DNA from: Stegostoma tigrinum
Taxonomy: Eukaryota
NCBI RefSeq assembly: GCF_030684315.1
Contig: NC_081374.1
Coordinates: 34,508,630 to 34,572,629 of the forward strand
DNA: 64,000 bases
Direction of reading: 5' to 3'
Shown: in pieces, positions 811-58,935 of the stretch
How the letters are laid out: each line of letters opens with the position of its first letter
Position numbering within the stretch: position 1 is the first letter of the stretch
Position numbers and translations under genes: made by a program
The notes under the pieces: model-generated
Seen by the model: only the letters and a program-made list of their open reading frames with translations
Told to the model about the DNA's origin: nothing
The model's database searches: none

Positions 811-945
811 GACAGAGACAATGGGAACTGCAGATGCTGGAGAATCCAAGACAACAAAATGTGAGGCTGGATGAACACAGCAGGCCAAGCAGCATCTCAG
901 GAGCACAAAAGCTGACGTTTTGGGCCTAGACCCTTCATCAGAGAG
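811..945 (-). mobile_element. ~135-bp PLE-derived monomer (family A) with hammerhead motif, 10-bp TSD
   Basis: Reverse complement matches the 3' end of the PLE at ~20952-21083. ATGTGTTTGA is duplicated at 801-810 and 946-955. The core reads CTGATGA...cccAAAAcgtc (G12>A). It is inserted in an older SINE remnant (~765-1000). Confidence 0.85.
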
Positions 946-18297: not shown

Positions 18298-18383
18298 TTT
18301 CTGAAGAAGGGTCCGGACCCGAAATGTCAGCTTCCCTGCTCCTCTGATGCTGCCTGACCTGCTGTGCTCATCCAGCTCACACT
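18298..18383 (+). mobile_element. PLE terminal fragment (family A variant) with hammerhead motif, no tail
   Basis: ttCTGAAGAagggtccggacccGAAAtGTCagcttccctgctcctctgatgctgcc...ccagctcacact. Confidence 0.75.
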
Positions 18384-18663
18384 TAGCCTAAAACCAGTCT
18401 GGATCGGGGCTCATGATCAGAAACGCACGTCCCACGTTGGATTAAGTAGGAATGTAAATTTAACAATGTACATGTGTTCGGCTGTGGTAAAGTTATACGG
18501 ACAGCTGAAATTTATTGTATTTGTAGCCAAATCTAAAAACCTGTTTCCACTGCCATTTATTTATTGATGGAAATGGATAGAGAATGCAACATTCTCTTTA
18601 CAAAAGTTAATCACTCTATAAATAAATGATTTATAGTTGGAAAGGATACAATAGAAACACTAG

Positions 18664-18696: not shown

Positions 18697-19150
18697 AATA
18701 GAGACACCAGTCCTTGTTTCATTTCGACTCAAGAACTGGGACTGTACCATGGTTATATTAAAAAAGGAACATGAACCGCGTTGCTGCGTTAATTGTCAGT
18801 ATTTCGATCTAAGTCAATGATGGAGCCGCGACATGCAATAGGGTTTGAACGGCCGAGATTGATAATCCCTCAATCCATTAGTTACAAATCTTTTAATGTA
18901 AACCAGATGTCAAGGAACACGCAGCGAGACAGCAAAGAGAGAAAGAAAGTCCCCCAAGAATGAGCCACCTCATTCTAATTGTTCATTCATGCTTGGTGAC
19001 CTGAGAAAGAGGAATTTCTTATCAATGGCACGGCAATGCAGCAGAGGGAGCTATTCAGGGACTGAAAGCCGACCAACTGCACAACCAAGATAATAAAATG
19101 TGAGGCTGGATGAACACAGCAGGCCAAGCAGCATCTCAGGAGCATAAAAG

Positions 19151-19182
19151 CTGACGTTTCGGGCCTAGACCCTTCATCAGAG
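19151..19182 (-). ncRNA. Minimal type-I hammerhead ribozyme motif (intact core)
   Basis: Minus strand: cu-CUGAUGA-A-GGGucuaggCCC-GAAAC-GUC^ag. Helix III is reduced to the palindromic ACGU. Confidence 0.8.
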
Positions 19183-19708
19183 AGGGGGATGGGGGGAGGG
19201 AACTGGAATAAATAGGGAGAGAGGGGGAGGCGGACCGAAGATGGAGAGAAAAGAAGATAGGTGGGGAGGGTGTAGGTGGGGAGGTAGGGAGGGGATAGGT
19301 CAGTCCAGGGAAGACGGACAGGTCAAGGAGGTGGGATGAGGTTAGTAGGTAGCGGGGGGTGCGGCTTGGGGTGGGAGGAAGGGATGGGTGAGAGGAAGAA
19401 CCTGTTAGGGAGGCAGAGACAGGTTGGACTGGTTTTGGGATGCAGTGGGTGGGGGGGAAGAGCTGGGCTGGTTGTGTGGTGCAGTGGGGGGAGGGGATGA
19501 ACTGGGCTGGTTTAGGGATGCAGTAGGGGAAGGGGAGATTTTGAAACTGGTGAAGTCCACATTGATACCATATGGCTGCAGGGTTCCCAGGCGGAATATG
19601 AGTTGCTGTTCCTGCAACCTTCGGGTGGCATCATTGTGGCAGTGCAGGAGGCCCATGATGGACATGTCATCAAGAGAATGGGAGGGGGAGTGGAAATGGT
19701 TTGCGACT

Positions 19709-20731
19709 TGTGTCCATTTCAAGCCCACCGACTCCCACAGCTACCTAGAATACACCTCCTCCCACCCACCCTCCTGCAAAAATTCCATCCCCTATTCCCA
19801 ATTCCTCTGCCTCCGCCGCATCTGCTCCCACGATAAGACATTCCACTCCCGCACATCCCAGATGTCCAAGTTCTTTAAGGACCGCAACTTTCCCCCCACG
19901 GTGATCGAGAACGCCCTTGACCGCGCCTCCCGCATTTCCCGCGACACATCCCTCACACCCCGCCCCCGCCACAACCGCCCCAAGAGGATCCCCCTCGTTC
20001 TCACACACCACCCTACCAACCTCCGGATACAACGCATTATCCTCCGACACTTCCGCCATTTACAATCCGACCCCACCACCCAAGACATTTTTCCATCCCC
20101 TCCCCTGTCTGCTTTCCGGAGAGACCACTCTCTCCGTGACTCCCTTGTTCGCTCCACGCTGCCCTCCAACCCCACCACACCCGGCACCTTCCCCTGCAAC
20201 CGCAGGAAATGCTACACTTGTCCCCACACCTCCTCCCTCACCCCCATCCCAGGCCCCAAGATGACATTCCACATCAAGCAGAGGTTCACCTGCACATCTG
20301 CCAATGTGGTATACTTCATCCACTGTACCCGGTGTGGCTTCCTCTACATTGGGGAAACCAAGCGGAGGCTTGGGGACCGCTTTGCAGAACACCTCCGCTC
20401 AGTTCGTAACAAACAACTGCACCTCCCAGTCGCAAACCATTTCCACTCCCCCTCCCATTCTCTTGATGACATGTCCATCATGGGCCTCCTGCACTGCCAC
20501 AATGATGCCACCCGAAGGTTGCAGGAACAGCAACTCATATTCCGCCTGGGAACCCTGCAGCCATATGGTATCAATGTGGACTTCACCAGTTTCAAAATCT
20601 CCCCTTCCCCTACTGCATCCCTAAACCAGCCCAGTTCATCCCCTCCCCCCACTGCACCACACAACCAGCCCAGCTCTTCCCCCCCACCCACTGCATCCCA
20701 AAACCAGTCCAACCTGTCTCTGCCTCCCTAA
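19709..20731 (+). pseudogene. Truncated PLE ORF: RT C-terminal/thumb region, Cys linker and GIY-YIG endonuclease
   Basis: KPTDSHSYLEYTSSHP...IPYSQFLCLRRICS (PLE RT C-terminus), CNRRKCYTC (Cys linker), NVVYFIHCTRCGFLYIGETKRRLGDRFAEH (GIY-YIG with CxxC) and LGTLQPYGIN. The frame is open but the RT catalytic core is missing. Confidence 0.92.
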
Positions 20732-20953
20732 CCGGTTCTTCCTCTCACCCATCCCTTCCTCCCACCCCAAGCCGCACCCCCCGCTACCTACTAACCTCAT
20801 CCCACCTCCTTGACCTGTCCGTCTTCCCTGGACTGACCTATCCCCTCCCTACCTCCCCACCTACACACTCTCCACCTATCTTCTTTACTCTCCATCTTCG
20901 GTCCGCCTCCCCCTCTCTCCCTATTTATTCCAGTTCCCTCCCCCCATCCCCCT

Positions 20954-20985
20954 CTCTGATGAAGGGTCTAGGCCCGAAATGTCAG
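20954..20985 (+). ncRNA. Hammerhead motif with a C>T change in helix III (GAAAUGUC)
   Basis: ctCTGATGAagggtctaggcccGAAAtGTCag. Confidence 0.65.
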
Positions 20986-21092
20986 CTTTTGTGCTCCTGA
21001 GATGCTGCTTGGCCTGCTGTGTTCACCCAGCCTCACATTTTATTATCTTGGAATCTCCAGCATCTGCAGTTCCCATTATCTCTCAACTGCAC

Positions 21093-21520
21093 AACCAGCC
21101 CAGCTCTTCCCCTCCACCCACTGCATCCCAAAACCAGCCCAGCCTGTCTCTGCCTCCCTAACCGGTTCTTCCTCTCACCCATCCCTTCCTCCCACCTCAA
21201 GCCGCACCTCCATCTCCTACCTACTAACCTCATCCGACCTCCTTGACCTGTCTGTCTTCCCTGGACTGACCTATCCCCTCCCTACCTCCCCACCTATACT
21301 CTCTCCACCTATTTTCTTTACTCCCCATCTTCGGTCCGCCTCCCCCTCTCTCCCTATTTATTCCAGTTCCCTCTCCCCATCCCCGTCTCTGACGAAGGGT
21401 CTAGGCCCGAAACGTCAGCTTTTGTGCTCCTGAGATGCTGCTGGGCCTGCTGTGTTCATCCAGCCTCACATTTTATTATCTTGGATTCTCCAGCATCTGC
21501 TGTTCCCGTTATCACTGACA
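21093..21520 (+). mobile_element. Second, 5'-truncated PLE pseudo-LTR in tandem with the large copy
   Basis: Direct repeat of ~20663-21083 with several substitutions. CAACTGCAC recurs at 21521-21529, a candidate TSD of this earlier insertion. Confidence 0.88.
21387..21418 (+). ncRNA. Minimal type-I hammerhead ribozyme motif (intact core)
   Basis: ctCTGACGAagggtctaggcccGAAACGTCag. Confidence 0.8.
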
Positions 21521-21653
21521 CAACTGCACCATTCAGCTCCTTTGTAACTTCAGCGGATACACTAAGCGGAAAGAGAACACCGACAAAAAATGCTGAAAAA
21601 ACCCTGGCAGCGTCTGTGGAGAGAGAGCGAGAGAGAGAGGGATCAGGGATGCC

Positions 21654-21730
21654 AGAGACAATTGGAACTGCAGATGCTGGAGAATCTGGGATAACAAAGT
21701 GTGGAGCTGGATGAACACAGCCTAAGATGC
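21654..21730 (-). mobile_element. Short PLE 3'-end insertion with imperfect 13-bp TSD
   Basis: Tail plus part of the arm, between GATCAGGGATGCC (21641-21653) and GATCAGACATGCC (21731-21743). Confidence 0.7.
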
Positions 21731-22705: not shown

Positions 22706-22816
22706 TAAATCTGCATGATAGTGTGAGACTCACAGCGTTTTTAAAAATATCTCCACGGCTGCCGTATGCTCCCAAAGGCAGGGCCTGCACGCACACGCAT
22801 GGTGGTTCTGTATATA

Positions 22817-22900
22817 GATAACACAGTGTGGAGCTAGAGGAACACAGCAAGTCAGGCAGCATCAGAGAGGCAGGAAAGCTGACGTTTCAGGTATTTCTGA
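22817..22900 (-). mobile_element. Collapsed PLE remnant (partial tail-less arm) with ~13-bp TSD
   Basis: GGTTCTGTATATA (22804-22816) and GGTTCTGTATGTA (22901-22913) flank agataacacagtgtggagc...gctgacgtttcagg. Confidence 0.7.
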
Positions 22901-23629
22901 GGTTCTGTATGTACTCTGGAGCTACTCGAACGGCTAAATAATAGACTTATTTTAAAAAAAGCTGGAATTTGCAACATAGGACTGTTTTCTAAAACCAGTG
23001 GTGAAGGCAAGCCATACATTTCTGCTTTCCCCTCTGTGAATCATTTCCCTGAAAATAGAACAGTATCACATTTTGTATGCTGTCAATATAGAATTAGGCA
23101 GAATGAAGAGACCATGTTGAGCACAGAGACTTGTGCCAGTTCTTTGGAAAGGTTTTGCAGCTAATCTCTATCCTGCTTTGTAACAGTCCAAGAACCCCTG
23201 CACATTTTGCCACTGCAAATTATTATTGAATCTGTTTCCCAATCTTTTTGACAGTACATGCTAATTTATAAAAACTTGCTGTGCAATTTATTTTTCTACA
23301 TGCTGGCTTTGGTTCTTCTGCTAATTTTTTTTTGACCTGTGTCCCTGTGGTTACTTTTTTTTCTGCCACTGGAAATCATTTCTGCTTGTGCACTTAATTG
23401 AAACTATACATGATATTGAACATGTCTATCAATTTAACTGTTAATCATATCTTCTATGATATAGATGAAGTCCCTCATCCCTGGTACCATTCCTGTAAAC
23501 CTCTGTACCTTCTCTAAGGATTTGACATTCTATCTGTAGTTTGTTGCATGTGATTGACTACAATACTCTCGTTGGGACCTTACCAGTGTTTTAAATAGAT
23601 TTGGCAAAATATGTTTCTGTTAGAACTCT

Positions 23630-23858
23630 AGATAACAAAGTGTGAAGCTGGATGAACACAGCAGGCCAAGCAGCATCTTAGGAGTACAAAAACTGACATT
23701 TCGGGCCTAGACCCTTCATCAGAGAGCTCTCTGATGAACGGTCTAGGCCCAAAACGTCAGCTTTTGTGCACCTAAGATGCTGCTTGGCCGGCTGTGTTCA
23801 TCCAGCTTCACACTTTGTTATCTTGGATTCTCCAGCAGCTGCAGTTCACATTATCCCG
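23630..23858 (+). mobile_element. Fold-back (palindromic) PLE mini-element, 97-bp arms + 35-bp tail, 11-bp TSD
   Basis: 23630-23726 and 23727-23823 are inverted with no spacer (centre gagctc). GTTAGAACTCT occurs at 23619-23629 and 23859-23869. A hammerhead motif is present on each strand, both with point changes. Confidence 0.92.
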
Positions 23859-26189
23859 GTTAGAACTCTTAGGCTTTATTTATTTATAAGCAAAAGATCA
23901 CTCGTAAATGCTTTTTTAGTCAAAAGAAAGACCACTTGTAGCTACAACTTTACTGTCATTTTTGTTCAATTCCCAATTTTATTAGGGTGCACATTGTATG
24001 TAATACTTGATGTTAATACTGAGACCTGATTCTGGAATTTGTAGGGATAGGAATTTGTAGGAGTAAGCCATTCAGTCCTTCAAGTCTATTTTTGTCATTG
24101 AGTTAAATCATAGTTGATCTGAGCCGATCTTCATATTCTTTGATACCCTTAACTGAAAGAAAACTTGATCTCAGCTTTGAAATTGTGAATGAATGAACCC
24201 CCTGCAGGTACTAGTCTTTGTGTGAAGGAATGCCTTAAAATCAAATATTGTGACACGGTTGTCTCATGTGCAAAATCCAAATGACTGGATGCTGTGTGTA
24301 GTCTATTGTTAATAAAACACTTTGGTTAATGTGTTGGATTGTCTTGAAATTTGATCTGCTCTGTAATCAGACCTGTTAATGACAAGAGTCTCAAGATGTT
24401 GGATTTCCACTGTCATAACATAGTGAGTGGTGTTCTGTAAGTCTGGTGGTTGACGTGGTGCTGTTTATTTGCTCATACATACGAGACATCCTCTGGTGGG
24501 CAAATTTAAAGCATAACTTATCATTCAGATGAGTTTGGTCATATAGTTGTTCTGAACCCTCTGCTTCTCTCTCCTATTTATGACGCTTCATAAAATCCAG
24601 CTGTGTAACCTGTTCTGAAATCTTCTTTGGCTGAATGTCAACATGTTTTAGTTCTGCTTACGTTCTATGAAAATCCTTAGGAAGATTCTTCGAGTCGCTT
24701 AAAAGAGTTAGATCAATAAAAGTACTGCTGCTTGTAAGGTTAAGAATTAGTGACAGCAATGCACAGCTTCACCTGACACAATAACACAACCACAATTCAA
24801 GCATGAAGTTTTTTACACCCTCAGTGTTTCCACCTGGATTCAAAGATAATCTGCATTTCTTTCACATGATACTTGATAGGAGCAGTGGTCATATCGTAAA
24901 AAGCTACCCTCAGCCTAAGTAGAGGTAATGGAATTAATTAGAGTTTATGCTGCAGTATAAACACATGGTGCCGGTGCAATTTTATCCTAAAGTGGCATCA
25001 CATACGCTGGCTAAAACATTGAAGGGATTCACTGCTGTTCAGTCCTCAAGCTCCATTATTATTTGCTCCCAGAGTTAAAGAATTTCAAAATTGCTGCCAC
25101 AACTCACACATGTAAGAGCAATATAAAAGAAACTCGGTGATCTTTATAGATCCACCTATCAAACCCTCCACTAGAATTCCTCTTGCCTACTTTCTGTAGA
25201 GAGATTAGGGGTGGGCAACAAATGCTGCCCTTGGCACTGGCGCCCCCATTGGCGAAGAAGACCTCCCCAGAAATGACGAGGCCTCCAAATCTCATTGTTA
25301 AAATCCCTTCACTTGCACTTGACTCTTCATTGCAACCAGGCATTCCGACAGCAGGAAATATTGTCCTCTTATTACTTGTTTACCTGCACTTTTCGAGCAT
25401 TTGAGAAGAAAAGATTCTCACTAAAATTTGGACTGCATTCATTTTGTATACTTTGCCATAAAAATCCATCATAAGTCACTTTTAAAAATTGACAAGCCTT
25501 CCCTCCACAAGCTATTCAATCCACTCAGCTTGATTTCTATGTCAATACTAGATTAATGAGTTGGAACATAAAATCCAAGGATGATACCCATTTTCGATTA
25601 GGTTTTTCAGAGTTAGGTTTGTGTTTGGTCTAATGAGACTGAGAGGAATAAGTGTATATGGTTGGAGATTGGCTTAATGAAGCCTGCTTTTGCCTCATTT
25701 AAGGTATGGCTTTCAGGTTGTGCTTAAAGAGAAAACTCCTGAATAATTTAAAGTTCAACCCTTTGTTGTGGCAAACCTTATTAGAAATGCAGTGGTACTC
25801 ATTGTTTCTTGTGGATTTCAAAGCTACATGGCAATGCAGTGCAGGGATCAATAAGCCTTATGCAAACAACAGTTAAGAGACATACATGCACAGCAGATAG
25901 TCTTAAAAAGGCCAAACTATGCAACAAGATCAGCAAGCAGAAAATCGAGGGTATTAATAAGTTGTTAACTGTGTGATTGCTCACACATTTGCAAACCCCA
26001 TAAAATACTTTGAAGAGGCTTACCTCGTTTTTTTTTTAACCTTATCACTATAATCACCTTGCCCTATCCGTCCACCCCCCCCCCCCCATCCTGTTGCCAT
26101 TCCCTCATCCCCTAGCAGCTCTGTTTGGATTTTTTTTGTGGAATGATAAACAGCAGTAACAATTAGTTTGGTCCCAACCAATAAAAATC

Positions 26190-28262: not shown

Positions 28263-28478
28263 CATCAGTGATAATGTGAGCTGCAGATGCTGGAGAATCC
28301 AAGATAACAAAGTGTGAAGCTGGATGAACACAGCAGGCCAAGCAGCATCTCAGGAGCACAAAAACTGACGTTTCGGGCCTAGAGCTCTCTGATGAAGGGT
28401 CTAGGCCCGAAACGTCAGCTTTTGTGCTCCTGAGATGCTGCTTGGCCTGCTGTGTTCATCCAGCTTCACACTTTGTTG
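28263..28478 (-). mobile_element. Fold-back PLE mini-element with perfect 14-bp TSD
   Basis: TATAAATAACATAG at 28249-28262 and 28479-28492. The tail is on the left. The left arm lacks ~14 nt next to the agctct centre. Confidence 0.92.
28387..28418 (+). ncRNA. Minimal type-I hammerhead ribozyme motif (intact core)
   Basis: ctCTGATGAagggtctaggcccGAAACGTCag. Confidence 0.8.
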
Positions 28479-31125: not shown

Positions 31126-31536
31126 CGCCTCCCTAGCCTGTTCTTCCTCTCACCTATCGCCTCCTCCCACCTCAAGCCACACCCCCATTTCCTTCCTACT
31201 AATCTCATCCCGCCCTCTTGACCTGTCCATCCTCCCCGGACTGACCTATCCCCTCCCTACCTCCCCACCTACACTCACCTCTGCTGGCTCCATCCCCGCC
31301 TCTTTAGCTTGTCTGTCTCCTCTTCACCTATCCTCTCCACTATCCATCTTCGATCCGCCTCCCCCTCTTTCCATATTTATTTCAGAATTCTCTCCTCATC
31401 CCACTTTTCTGATGAAGGGTCTAGGGCCAAAACGTCAGCTTTTGTGCTCTTAAGATGCTGCTTGGCCTGCCGTGTTCATCCAGCTCTACACTTCGTTATC
31501 TCGGATTCTCCAGATCTGCAGTTCCCATTATCTCTA
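31126..31536 (+). mobile_element. 5'-truncated PLE pseudo-LTR (family A) with decayed hammerhead
   Basis: Homologous to 20720-21083; CTGATGAagggtctagggccAAAAcgtc; ends in cagttcccattatctct. Confidence 0.85.
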
Positions 31537-36780: not shown

Positions 36781-37000
36781 AAAACAAATGAAGAACTGTA
36801 AGGTGCTGGAAGTCAGAAACAAAAACTGAAATTATTGGAAAAACTCAGCAGGTTAGCAGCATCTGTGGAGAGAAAAACAAATTAACATTTCATCTCCAGT
36901 GACCCTTCGCTGTAAGGGGTCACTGGACCCGAAACGTTAACTCTGCTTTCTCTCCACAGATGCTTTTGGACCTACTCAGGTTCTAGCAATTTCTGTTTTT
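36781..37000 (-). mobile_element. Older fold-back family-B PLE mini-element
   Basis: cagcatctgtggagagaaa...ccagtgacccttc / gggtcactggacccGAAACGTTaactctgctttctctccacagatgc, inverted about ~36911; tail on the left. Confidence 0.8.
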
Positions 37001-38559
37001 CAATGTTGGCTGGATTGATAGCCTGGCAGAGGCTGGAAAGGTTTATTCCTCACCATGGGATCGTTCAGCACAGTCTCCGGCAATTGGGAGGGGAGTCGTA
37101 AACAAGTGCGATATCAATCCATGTTTTAAACAGTACGACCCTTAATAATAAATTAGTTTCTGTATCCACTCCAATCAAACTCTAAGCTGCATATTTAAGA
37201 AGTCCTAGTATTGTCACGAATGGGCTGGGAATCAAGAGAGAGGTGTAGTGCAGTGTGAGGATAAGTCATTTGCTCTGTGAGGGCTTCATTAAAGTATGTG
37301 AATGCAGTATCCCATGGAGGATACTAACATGTCATAAAATTATACTCACTTGCAGTGTAAGAGTTGGGAGCCTTTTTATGAAATTACCTCTAATGTGCCT
37401 GATTATAAAGAACATTCATAGAAATATAATCTTGTCAGTTACAGATTGGCTTTTTTTTCCTGAGGATTTCAGAGATACTGAATGATGAATGTACACTGTG
37501 ACATTTTAAGAACGCCTCCTCTAATTTACCCTTTCAAATGTACTTACCTTAGAATCTTGTATGAGTTGACTAAGGGTTTTTCCTGAATTGTAACATAATT
37601 GATGCTGCCATATTGCAGAGCTGGAACTGAAATGTTAAATGAACAGTTGGACTGTACAAAAATTAAATATGTCCAAGTCTTTGAAGGAAGGTTTCAAAAA
37701 ACTCTTCTGAAAGAGAATAAATCAGAAATGCGTTCTCCTCTGAAAGACTGTTAGATAGCCATCTGTAGCTCAGGTTGGAGGTTTTAAGCTAAAATTGATT
37801 GATTAAAATAGGTGGAAGTGATTGCCAAGCAAGATCACCATTTATCAAGTTCATCACAAAGTTATTCAATGGGTTTATCTTACAATTCTTTTCCAATGAA
37901 TAGCTGATTTCTTTACATTGTGAAAATTGCTGTATTTTATTAGTATTTTCTGAAGTCACAGCCAATAGTTTAAACTGTATTAACCACAAAGAAAATGCAT
38001 CACTTTTACTGTTTTCACGGCTTCACTACATAATTTTATTTTCACTTTATTTCACCACTCATGAAAATACTTATAAAACACTTGTTTTATATATGGACTG
38101 GTCTAGTTACTGATTAACTAAAAGAAAAAAAGGTAACAAAGAGAATAAATAATTCTCTTTTCTTGCAAATAAGCCTAATGAAAAATGTTGCTTTTTGTAT
38201 GACCTCTGAATTGTAGATGATTTTTAAATCAAATTATTAAGATTATTGTTCTGAGTAAGAAATGCACATTGATAACAACAGTTAATGAATTAACATAATT
38301 GTGAGCCTAATCGTATGAGGTTCTGCATTTAAATTCTATTTGGATGTCTCTTCCAGCAATTATGGCATGTCTCTACTCAAGCGTGACTATTTTCTGACTC
38401 TGGCAGGTGTCTGTAGAATCTGTTTCCACTATAGTATATTCTCTACTGTAAGGTAGCATATCTCTCTTTGGTACAGATTGATGCTGCTCTCTCCTCGAAG
38501 TCTATGACTCTTGATGTTGCTGCTACACCTTCGGTTACATTGCTGCGCCAATGGAAAAT

Positions 38560-48654: not shown

Positions 48655-48852
48655 AAAACAAAATGCTTGAGAAACTCAGCAGGTCTGGCTGCATCTGTGG
48701 AGAGAGAAACTGTTACTGTTTCGAGCCGAATATGACTTTTTTAGAACTGAAATACAGTCATGCTGGACTTGAAACATTAACTCTAATCTCACTCTACAGA
48801 TGCTGCCACATCTGCTGAGTTTCTCCAGCAATTTCTATTTTTACTTCAGATT
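48655..48852. mobile_element. Old fold-back family-B-like PLE mini-element
   Basis: gagaaactcagcaggtctggctgcatctgtggagagaga is inverted with ctctacagatgctgccacatctgctgagtttctc; the centre is decayed. Confidence 0.75.
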
Positions 48853-48973
48853 TGTAGTAGTTCACCTTAATCTGCTTTTGAAACCTGGCTTCTCAAACTG
48901 TGATCATTTATTTCTAGATTTTTGTCATGAAAGCATCAGGGAGGAAACCTGTAAAAGGAGCCATTACCACTAA

Positions 48974-49448
48974 GAGACAGCAAGAACATTTCAACGCCCC
49001 ACTTCCACTTGCTGAGCGACATGTCCATCCTGGGCCTCCTCCAGTGTCACAAAGACACCACCCACAAACTGGAGGAGCAACACCTCGTATTCCGCCTCAG
49101 AAGCTTACAACCCAATGGCCTAAACATGGAATTCACCAGTTTTAAAATCTCCCCACCCCCTGGCTTCAACTCATAATTAACCCTGCCTCCTTGACCTGAC
49201 ACAACCTGTCCACCTTCTCTCCCACCAATCCGCTCCTCCCAGCTAACTTACCAATCCCCATCACTCCCTACCTACACTCACCTATCACCATCTCACCTAT
49301 CTCCCCCAGCCCCACTCATCCTCTATTTATTCTGGAGCTTCCTTCCCCCTCCCCCATTTCTGATGAAGGGCCCAGACCCAAAACGTCAGCTTTCCTCTTC
49401 CTCCAAAGCTGCCTGGCCTGCTGTGTTTCTCCAGCTCCACACTGTGTT
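48974..49448 (+). mobile_element. Collapsed PLE insertion: inverted tail stub + tail-less arm with GIY-YIG C-terminal remnant; 15-bp TSD
   Basis: AGCCATTACCACTAA (48959-48973) and AGCCATTACCGCTAA (49449-49463). gacatgtccatcctgggcctcctccagtg is homologous to 20468. Hammerhead reads CTGATGAagggcccagacccAAAAcgtc. Confidence 0.8.
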
Positions 49449-50117
49449 AGCCATTACCGCTAATACTTGAGCTGTGAATATAAACCTTGTTTTCCAATTA
49501 GTATTGTGCAACTTATGCATGTTAACTTTGCTGACCCAGTGAAATTGCATTTCACTGAAATTGAATAAGTGAGCTGCCAGTACTAATTACCTCCTAATCA
49601 GCAGCTGAGCAATTCACAGGTCAGGAAATCTGTCCTCATGACGTAGGTAGGGCCCTGGGAGTGGACTTTAATTAAAGATAGCCTGCAGCCTTTTGAAAAG
49701 GAAGAACTGCATTTCAACAGTAGTCAATGGAGAGTGAGTTTGATAGTCAACAGGCAATGTGATATCATGCAGCGTCCCTGAAATCTCTCAAGCAGCCACA
49801 GACATATTGTTAGGGCAGATGATTGAGTTACTCTGAGTCGGTCCATTCCCCCCGTAACCTTGAATAGTTCTTGGGCATCTTGTTGAATTAGCCATTAGTC
49901 AGTTCCAAATCTCACAGAGCTAACTGCGCCGTTGAAGAAACTTAATAAACTGACATCTCTCAGGATGACTGGCAATGGCTAAATATGCATTCTTTAACCA
50001 GTAGAGTGCTAGTGTGAGAAAGCCAGCTGAATCACCCTATCTCAGCAGATGGCCAGCATGTGAATCAGCAGCTGGGCTGTCAGGCATGCAGTCCTTAAGA
50101 TAACTGCCCTTGAGCAT

Positions 50118-55404: not shown

Positions 55405-55634
55405 AATAAAATGTGAGGCTGGATGAACACAGCAGGCCAAGCAGCATCCCAGGAGCACAAAAGCTGATGTTTCGGGCCTAGACCCTTCATCAGAGACTGC
55501 TCTCTGATGAAGGGTCTAGGCCCGAAACATCAGCTTTTGTACTCCTGAGATGCTGCTTGGCCTGCTGTGTTCATCCAGCCTCACATTTTATTATCTTGGA
55601 TTCTCCAGCATCTGCAGTTCCCATTATCACTCAC
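55405..55634 (+). mobile_element. Fold-back PLE mini-element, ~93-bp arms, 4-nt loop, tail, 14-bp TSD
   Basis: 55404-55496 and 55501-55593 are inverted around ctgc. ACATGCCACAAGGT (55391-55404) and ACATACCACAAGGT (55635-55648). Both hammerhead copies read GAAACATC. Confidence 0.92.
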
Positions 55635-58714: not shown

Positions 58715-58935
58715 AAAACAAATAAATGTGTATTCTGGAGCTCTAAAACACACACAAATGGAAATTGCTGGAGAAACTCAGCAGATCTGGCAGCATCTGT
58801 GGGGAGAAAGCAGAGTTAACATCTTGAGTGCAATGACCATTCCTCATAAGAGTTCTGTGGAAGGGTCACTCAACATGAAGCGTTAACTCTGTTTTCTCTT
58901 CACAGATGCTGCCAGATTGCAATTTTTTGGTTTGG
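58715..58935 (-). mobile_element. Old fold-back family-B PLE mini-element
   Basis: tctggcagcatctgtggggagaaagcagagttaac...cattcctca / gagttctgtggaagggtcactc...gttaactctgttttctcttcacagatgctgccaga. Confidence 0.78.

What the first reader, a model, noticed from the sequence alone, without database searches (positions are those of the whole stretch)
23619..23869. Fold-back 'double-hammerhead' mini-retroelements: MITE-like palindromes built from Penelope termini
Seen: a spacer-less 194-bp palindrome plus a 35-bp tail and an 11-bp TSD. The symmetry axis is 4 nt upstream of CUGAUGA, so each strand encodes a hammerhead motif. The same architecture and nearly the same centre recur at 28263 and 55405 and, in a second family, at 36781, 48655 and 58715. 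Long variable TSDs and the asymmetric tail point to target-primed reverse transcription, not DNA transposition. Inference: either a non-autonomous family whose RNA is a rod-like hairpin with ribozyme motifs in both polarities (formally viroid/retrozyme-like), or a reproducible product of RT fold-back at the ribozyme. I am not aware of this being described as a class in vertebrates, but cannot search to confirm.
Basis: partly seen in the sequence, partly recalled or inferred. Interest (0 to 1): 0.85.

Follow-up and report, generated by a model that had tools for sequence, protein, structure and literature searches.

The report
Penelope mirror stubs record RNA ends
These mirror-image DNA stubs are real and very abundant but are the shortest form of a known jumping-gene (Penelope) insertion pattern, likely rebuilt at each insertion, and their centres likely mark where the element's RNA starts and where its ribozyme cuts.

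Summary
The palindrome is real (97-nt arms, no spacer, 35-nt tail, 11-bp TSD). It is not a MITE, retrozyme or self-copying hairpin family. It is the shortest form of the known Penelope-like (PLE) "inverted pLTR + tail + TSD" insertion. Evidence: one tailed plus one tail-less arm in 46/47 unselected pairs; TSDs of 11-18 bp; joints scattered from -931 to +48; the same centre on six subfamily haplotypes. Roughly 10^5 copies are extrapolated. Two hotspots matter. 5' ends at -4 (7,444, against 3,088 and 2,091 beside it) are preceded by G in 85/100 rows, the cap-copy signature, at a TCT-type initiator. 5' ends at the predicted hammerhead cut, +28, number 2,747 against 312 and 320 beside it; perfect palindromes there number 580 against 120 and 21 at control words. 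Likely mechanism: two cDNAs are primed on the two target strands, run off the RNA 5' end and are joined head to head. "Double hammerhead" holds only loosely: the rod fold buries the core, and this copy's + strand motif has lost G12. The scan noted the palindromes and the transcript-start reading before in other genomes; the cut-site class was not in the notes I saw.

The parts
23619..23629 (+). left target-site duplication (11 bp)
23630..23726 (-). tail-less inverted arm: PLE pLTR positions -4 to +92 (0 = C of CTGATGA)
23695..23722 (-). minimal type I hammerhead motif on the - strand, core near intact (GAAA-T-GTC)
   Evidence: motif anatomy as in PMC4209133
23727..23823 (+). direct arm, pLTR -4 to +92; centre AGAG|CTCT at 23726/23727
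23731..23758 (+). hammerhead motif on the + strand with core G12 lost (GAAA to AAAA); predicted cut GUC/AG after 23758
23824..23858 (+). 35-nt PLE tail (between the two RT start sites)
   Evidence: PMC11167929
23859..23869 (+). right target-site duplication
28263..28478 (-). second mini-palindrome: tailed arm ends at +11, tail-less arm at -4 with an extra G; 14-bp TSD
55405..55634 (+). third mini-palindrome: arms -3 and -4, insert CTG (ends in G); 14-bp TSD with 1 mismatch
19088..21083 (+). long sibling of the same layout: tail-less inverted arm to -528, direct arm from -1246 with the ORF end (weak GIY-YIG hit; CxxxxCxxC and CCHH motifs), tail, 14-bp TSD
814..945 (-). solo one-armed stub, also starting at -4, with a 10-bp TSD
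36781..37011 (.). older second-family fold-back, decayed core, weak 8-10 bp TSD candidate
48655..48875 (.). older second-family fold-back, decayed
58715..58917 (.). older second-family fold-back, decayed, no TSD found

Best explanation
The palindromes are the shortest form of the Penelope-like inverted insertion, likely made anew at each integration when two short cDNAs, primed on the two cut target strands, run off the 5' end of the element RNA and are joined head to head. Shown: one tailed and one tail-less arm, 11-18 bp TSDs, the same outer ends as the long inverted copies, variable joints, 5'-end peaks at -4 and +28, and a G excess at -4. Inferred: (1) the enzyme cuts both strands about 14 bp apart and starts reverse transcription at the two internal sites, about +90 and +126 (by analogy to the anole PLE in vitro); (2) -4 is the capped transcript start at a TCT-type initiator, and the extra G is the copied cap; (3) +28 is the hammerhead cut; (4) the two cDNA 3' ends anneal through GC (cap copy) or AGCT (cut end), which gives spacer-less centres; (5) long copies come from circular or multimeric templates, which have no stop at -4. 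The stubs would be dead-end by-products, not a replicating hairpin RNA.
For: Tail asymmetry in 46/47 unselected and 45/47 centre-selected pairs. TSD 11-18 bp, mode 14, in 80/85; tail-less ends mostly +85 to +94 and tailed ends +122 to +135, differing per copy. Joints from -931 to +48; of 34 young joints, 15 overlap, 11 carry an insert, 8 are blunt. The centre AGAGCTCT occurs on six haplotypes with 3 or more copies each (46 copies); arms match at subfamily marks; no recurrent arm-specific change except CpG decay and arm-end noise; L199 arms differ at 4 of 6 marks. 5'-end counts: -5 3,088, -4 7,444, -3 2,091. G precedes in 85/100 rows at -4, against 42/100 at -5 and 46/100 at -3 (hand counts). 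Leaving out 46 rows where the mirror arm could supply the G, it is 39/54 against 27% background (p 5e-12). An extra G marks capped 5' ends in L1 insertions (PMC11702581). CC+1TCTCT fits YC+1TYTYY (PMC5580651), and the older subfamily's centre shifts to C+1TTTT. +27 312, +28 2,747, +29 320. Perfect palindromes: AGCT(+28) 580, CTAG(+12) 120, GGCC(+55) 21. First-pass arms stop at -8 to +5 in 61/121; copies that had already crossed the tail-ORF junction stop there in 0/12 (1/13 with L027), p 0.0004-0.003. Both-strand cutting and extension, and two RT starts bounding the tail, were shown in vitro (PMC11167929).
Against: The transcript start and the cut were not seen in RNA; both are read from DNA joints. 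TSD-bounded solo stubs at -4 in unselected DNA show the G only sometimes (1 clear, 1 ambiguous, 4 without). Full-length copies do not pile up at -4, which needs the extra assumption of circular or multimeric templates. About 63 of the first 100 rows at +28 are AGCT-centred mirrors, so microhomology inflates that peak; the remainder is only about 3-fold above its neighbours. An RT pause at a helix next to +28 would mimic cutting. The anole study found no RNA-seq reads ending at the cut, and cutting was not needed in vitro. Most arms match within a copy, which fold-back also predicts. Listed rows come from the start of contig C1 only.
Confidence: 0.72

Rival explanations
1. Single-cDNA fold-back (self-priming): one tailed cDNA reaches the RNA end, folds back and is copied, stopping about 35 nt short.
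For: Arms share subfamily marks, and 16 private changes are shared by both arms. Self-priming was proposed for PLE inverted junctions (PMC3846280). Templated inserts such as GAAGGG+TCT show 3'-end slippage (L220, L224).
Against: Zero-spacer centres (832 at -4, 580 at +28) cannot be hairpin loops, but fit two ends annealing through GC or AGCT (inference). Tail-less solo stubs end at the same +88 to +93 site, so it is an RT start. Chimeric arms occur (L199; 2-3 marks in L198, L211, L214, L225). Both strands are extended in vitro.
Confidence: 0.15
2. A self-propagating non-autonomous hairpin element (retrozyme- or viroid-like) copied as a unit.
For: 832 copies share one exact 34-nt centre. Some asymmetric centres recur in the same orientation (AGAGGCTCT 3/3, AGAGGGTCT 3/3). 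Non-autonomous PLE derivatives exist (bioRxiv 2026.07.22.740005).
Against: The same centres occur on different subfamily haplotypes with no family marks. Joints form a continuum. The left ends sit at an RT start site rather than showing 5' truncation. The core is fully paired in the rod, and opening it costs 26-32 kcal/mol. Each strand carries one sense motif, while minimal hammerheads need dimers (PMC4209133). 0/34 unselected copies keep two cores.
Confidence: 0.06
3. The hotspots are RT pauses at the ribozyme's structure or at the C-rich tract, not RNA ends.
For: Both peaks lie at the edges of the hammerhead fold. The -4 peak is a few bases wide.
Against: cDNAs on their second pass do not stop at -4 (0/12). 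The G excess is specific to -4. The +28 peak is one base wide, and few ends fall at the base of helix II. This rival is still open for +28.
Confidence: 0.12
4. MITE or DNA-transposon derivative.
For: Long inverted repeats, no coding capacity, high copy number.
Against: TSDs vary from 11 to 18 bp, ends are ragged and asymmetric, and the arms are 90-99% identical to a PLE end.
Confidence: 0.01

Closest known systems
EN+ Penelope-like element insertions with inverted pLTR and one-sided tail (Arkhipova 2013, PMC3846280; Craig 2021, PMC8557442; passages read)
   Same: Inverted 5'-truncated copy head to head, 30-40 nt tail on one end, variable TSD, palindromes at the inverted junction.
   Different: Here both arms are cut down to 65-130 nt, the class reaches roughly 10^5 copies (extrapolated), and the joints pile up at two defined RNA positions.
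Anole Poseidon PAc in vitro (Frangieh 2024, PMC11167929; main text parts 1-2 read)
   Same: Both strands nicked and extended; two internal RT starts bounding the tail; product length set by the RNA 5' end.
   Different: That paper saw no RNA-seq ends at the hammerhead cut and, in the parts I read, gives no model for palindromes. The parent here has the CX2-5CxxC linker of Neptune/Nematis, not Poseidon.
Minimal PLE hammerheads (Cervera and de la Pena 2014, PMC4209133; parts 1-2 read)
   Same: Extra base after CUGAUGA, palindromic helix III (ACGU); dual motifs on opposite strands 100-700 bp apart were already noted in Schistosoma.
   Different: The paper says in vivo evidence is absent; the +28 peak is a genomic footprint of the cut.
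Animal non-LTR retrozymes (PMC7229834; bioRxiv 2026.07.22.740005; passages read)
   Same: Short, non-coding, PLE-derived, carry a type I hammerhead.
   Different: Retrozymes are head-to-tail tandems that give circRNAs; these are head-to-head single insertions whose motif is buried.
L1 twin priming and cap-G at full-length 5' junctions (PMC11702581; passages read)
   Same: Second-strand priming, sharp 12-18 bp TSDs, end-joined inversion junction, extra G from the cap.
   Different: In L1 the inverted part is a different upstream segment. Here both cDNAs copy the same segment from two fixed starts, which gives a palindrome.

Membership tests
EN+ PLE inverted insertion | arms homologous to the pLTR of an RT + C-terminal GIY-YIG element | tested here: met
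   Arms 90-99% identical to 19088-21083. GIY-YIG hit E 6e-4 and RVT_1 hit E 3e-4 in a sibling ORF, both below Pfam cut-offs; GIY-CC-YIG and CCHH motifs visible.
EN+ PLE inverted insertion | 30-40 nt tail on one end only | tested here: met
   35 nt here; 46/47 unselected pairs
EN+ PLE inverted insertion | variable-length TSD | tested here: met
   11-18 bp in 80/85
Neptune/Nematis clade | CX2-5CxxC linker between RT and EN | tested here: met
   CNRRKCYTC in the window ORF; criterion from PMC8557442
Neptune/Nematis clade | RT phylogeny | not tested
   no reference set held; no tree built
non-LTR retrozyme | head-to-tail tandem with a hammerhead in each unit | tested here: not met
   head-to-head single insertions
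non-LTR retrozyme | ribozyme able to fold in the transcript | tested here: not met
   core unpaired probability 0.002 or less in the rod (prediction)
non-LTR retrozyme | expressed circular RNA | not testable with these tools
   needs RNA data
MITE | short fixed TSD and precise symmetric termini | tested here: not met
self-propagating family | shared arm-specific marks or a fixed centre tied to one lineage | tested here: not met

The most novel reading that the evidence does not exclude
About 10^5 mirror stubs form a fossil 5'-end map of a vertebrate Penelope RNA. They record a capped TCT-type start at -4 and germ-line self-cleavage of the minimal hammerhead at +28, and they show that PLEs integrate by two-ended priming from two fixed internal starts. 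Uncut or linear RNAs then yield only stubs, and ribozyme-made circles or multimers are the productive templates.
Probability: 0.5. Interest if true: 0.72.

Novelty: new variant of a known kind. Interest (0 to 1): 0.5.

Why it matters
The origin of PLE inverted repeats and tails, and whether their weak hammerheads cut in vivo, are stated as open in the papers read (PMC8557442, PMC4209133, PMC11167929). These stubs give base-precise, cheaply testable predictions: a capped start at -4, a cut at +28, and joining through GC or AGCT. For annotation, about 30 hairpins per Mb would be mis-called as MITEs or miRNA-like hairpins. As a 'new class of element' the finding does not hold.

Tried and rejected
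Rfam at gathering score: no hit, so the hammerhead call rests on motif anatomy. RNA runs: no RNA holder listed, which is no evidence on expression. Laying contigs of four runs of unrecorded kind on 23200-24300 gave coverage of the flanks and centre but no spanning record, and the runs may be the assembly's own sample, so it is not used as support. Arm-versus-copy distances outside subfamily marks: within 0.033, between 0.035-0.040 (82 of 85 copies); this does not separate fold-back from two cDNAs. The idea that full-length copies begin at -4 was tested and not met. The idea that the extra G comes from palindromic templates was considered: the excess is one base (after it A/T/G = 20/11/8 in 39 rows, near background), so it was set aside but not excluded. 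The idea that +28 palindromes are deletions of -4 ones was set aside because the nearer CTAG word gives fewer. Literature: 10 searches found no paper describing vertebrate PLE mini-palindromes or insertion ends at the cut site. The library lacks most subscription papers, Lunse 2017 was not held, Dfam and Repbase could not be checked, and no supplements were read; any of these could hold a description. The organism was not identified. One block of the genome sample (C7) did not exist.

Full report
Numbering: 0 = the C of CTGATGA; yardstick = the window's own long copy, 19710-21085.

1. Observation. At 23619-23869 there is an 11-bp TSD, two 97-nt arms with 7 mismatches and no spacer, and a 35-nt tail. 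The fold has z = -21.5. The axis AGAG|CTCT lies 4 nt upstream of CTGATGA on both strands. The motif is a minimal type I hammerhead as described for PLEs: an extra base after CUGAUGA, helix II GGGU-CUAG-GCCC, then GAAA-CGUC with the predicted cut after +27 (anatomy compared with PMC4209133; Rfam gives no hit). In this copy the + strand motif has lost G12. The copy at 28263 has only one motif, and 55405 has a changed helix III in both arms. The three second-family sites are decayed fold-backs with no intact core.

2. Parent. The arms match the end of a PLE in the same window, 19088-21083. It has the same layout at larger size: a tail-less inverted arm to -528, a direct arm from -1246, a tail and a 14-bp TSD. 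Its ORF end has a weak GIY-YIG hit, CCHH and a CX4CX2C linker; a sibling ORF has a weak RVT_1 hit. The linker points to Neptune/Nematis; no tree was built.

3. Genome survey (3.2 Gb). There are 832 exact 34-nt centres and 6,771 sites with two exact 11-mers 0-13 nt apart; of the first 50 listed, 8 have the exact centre. In five 200-kb blocks, the window plus 50 kb, and the flanks of 50 centre-selected loci, I found 65 unselected head-to-head pairs (3 are segmental duplicates on C10), with joints from -931 to +48 and a hotspot near -4. Of the 47 pairs at 80% identity or more, 46 have exactly one tailed arm. TSDs are 11-18 bp in 80 of 85 pairs at 85% identity or more, against 2 of 200 controls. 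34 mini-palindromes in 1.114 Mb extrapolate to about 10^5 (rough, and 4 of them lie in or beside the selected window).

4. Family or by-product. In 85 copies oriented by the tail, both arms carry the same subfamily marks (for example 27 concordant against 10.9 expected at +82). The exact centre occurs on six haplotypes with at least 3 copies each, and rarer centres also cross haplotypes. No arm-specific change recurs apart from CpG decay and arm-end noise. A few copies have arms of different haplotypes; L199 differs at 4 of 6 marks. The transcript folds as a rod with the core paired (unpaired probability 0.002 or less; opening costs 26-32 kcal/mol), and none of 34 unselected copies keeps two cores. 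So the structure is regenerated at insertion, not inherited from a hairpin master. Against this, asymmetric centres recur in one orientation; I read that as asymmetry of the mechanism.

5. Why -4. One-armed stubs stop there too. Genome-wide 5'-end counts, using patterns that demand non-parental bases upstream, are 3,088 at -5, 7,444 at -4 and 2,091 at -3. In the first 100 rows of each, the preceding base is G in 42, 85 and 46 (hand counts). Dropping the 46 rows at -4 where the mirror arm could supply the G leaves 39 G of 54, against 27% expected. An extra G is the cap signature at L1 full-length junctions (PMC11702581). CC+1TCTCT fits the TCT initiator consensus (PMC5580651), and in the older subfamily the centre moves one base, to C+1TTTT. 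It is not a plain RT pause: 61 of 121 first-pass arms stop at -8 to +5, but 0 of 12 independent copies that had already crossed the tail-ORF junction do (1 of 13 with L027; 30 loci examined, 17 of which end further downstream, one duplicate dropped). Against: TSD-bounded solo stubs in unselected DNA show the G in only 1-2 of 6, and full-length copies do not begin at -4, so long copies need another template, circular or multimeric (inferred).

6. A second end at the ribozyme cut. 5' ends number 312 at +27, 2,747 at +28 and 320 at +29. About 63 of the first 100 rows at +28 are palindromes centred on AGCT, which is self-complementary, so I ran controls at two other such words: AGCT 580, CTAG 120 (CpG decay allowed), GGCC 21. 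Without those mirrors the peak is about 3-fold. Of 10 such loci examined, 7 showed a clear tail on one arm and 4 had 14-15 bp TSDs. In the roughly ten +28 rows with unrelated flanks, G is not common (hand look), as expected for an uncapped end. An RT pause at an adjacent helix remains possible. The papers read report no in vivo evidence for PLE hammerhead cutting.

7. Mechanism. The anole PLE nicks and extends both strands and starts RT at two internal sites that bound the tail, on RNA that must include the start of the ORF (PMC11167929). Applied here (inferred): starts at about +126 and +90 on an RNA that begins at -4 (capped) or +28 (cut) give two run-off cDNAs of 65-130 nt on the two target ends. 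Their 3' ends pair through GC or AGCT or are end-joined (15 overlap, 11 insert, 8 blunt among 34 joints), and repair leaves a TSD of about 14 bp. A zero-spacer centre needs no loop under this model, whereas fold-back does.

8. Known versus new. The inverted pLTR, one-sided tail, TSD and junction palindromes are described (PMC3846280; PMC8557442; D. virilis in PMC2377424), as are opposite-strand motif pairs. Retrozymes are head-to-tail tandems. Ten searches found no description of this stub class or of insertion ends at the cut site; the limits are listed under Tried and rejected. What I saw of each paper: PMC11167929 and PMC4209133, parts 1-2 of 4; the bioRxiv preprint, part 1 of 5 plus passages; all others (also PMC6765202, and PMC6431247), passages only; no supplements. 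Earlier scan notes from other genomes reached the by-product reading and the transcript-start reading. I had noted both ideas before seeing them, and they are not counted as support.

Verdict: real, abundant, a new variant of a known insertion type. Its value lies in the two RNA ends it appears to record. Interest 0.5.

Noticed in passing
L156-L185; e.g. G000:C1:104860939-104862284, C1:110519788-110520696, C1:49657926-49658679: Internally deleted head-to-tail units of this PLE (pLTR + start of ORF + pLTR), about 200-570 nt, some in arrays of 3-5 with periods 329, 293 and 362 nt: non-LTR-retrozyme-like derivatives.
   Followed up: partly
window 19074-21530: Nested insertion: the young inverted copy sits at the 5' junction of an older truncated copy (21090-21516) and duplicates it.
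   Followed up: partly
L220, L224 (centres): Joint inserts GAAGGG+TCT look templated from +5 to +13, as if the cDNA end slipped back on a TCT microhomology.
   Followed up: partly
L014:1386-1649: Rare palindrome with tails on both arms and 94 more identical bases beyond them; no TSD found.
   Followed up: no
G000:C10:20000001-20200000: Segmental duplication with a period of about 95.6 kb; copies were de-duplicated in the counts where stated.
   Followed up: partly
   Followed up: partly
window 21555-21722: A second-family-like fragment head to head with a first-family tailed fragment across a GA repeat; no TSD found.
   Followed up: no
window 18300-18384, 22816-22891, 31127-31535, 49302-49449: Further one-armed, older copies of the same PLE end.
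   Followed up: no
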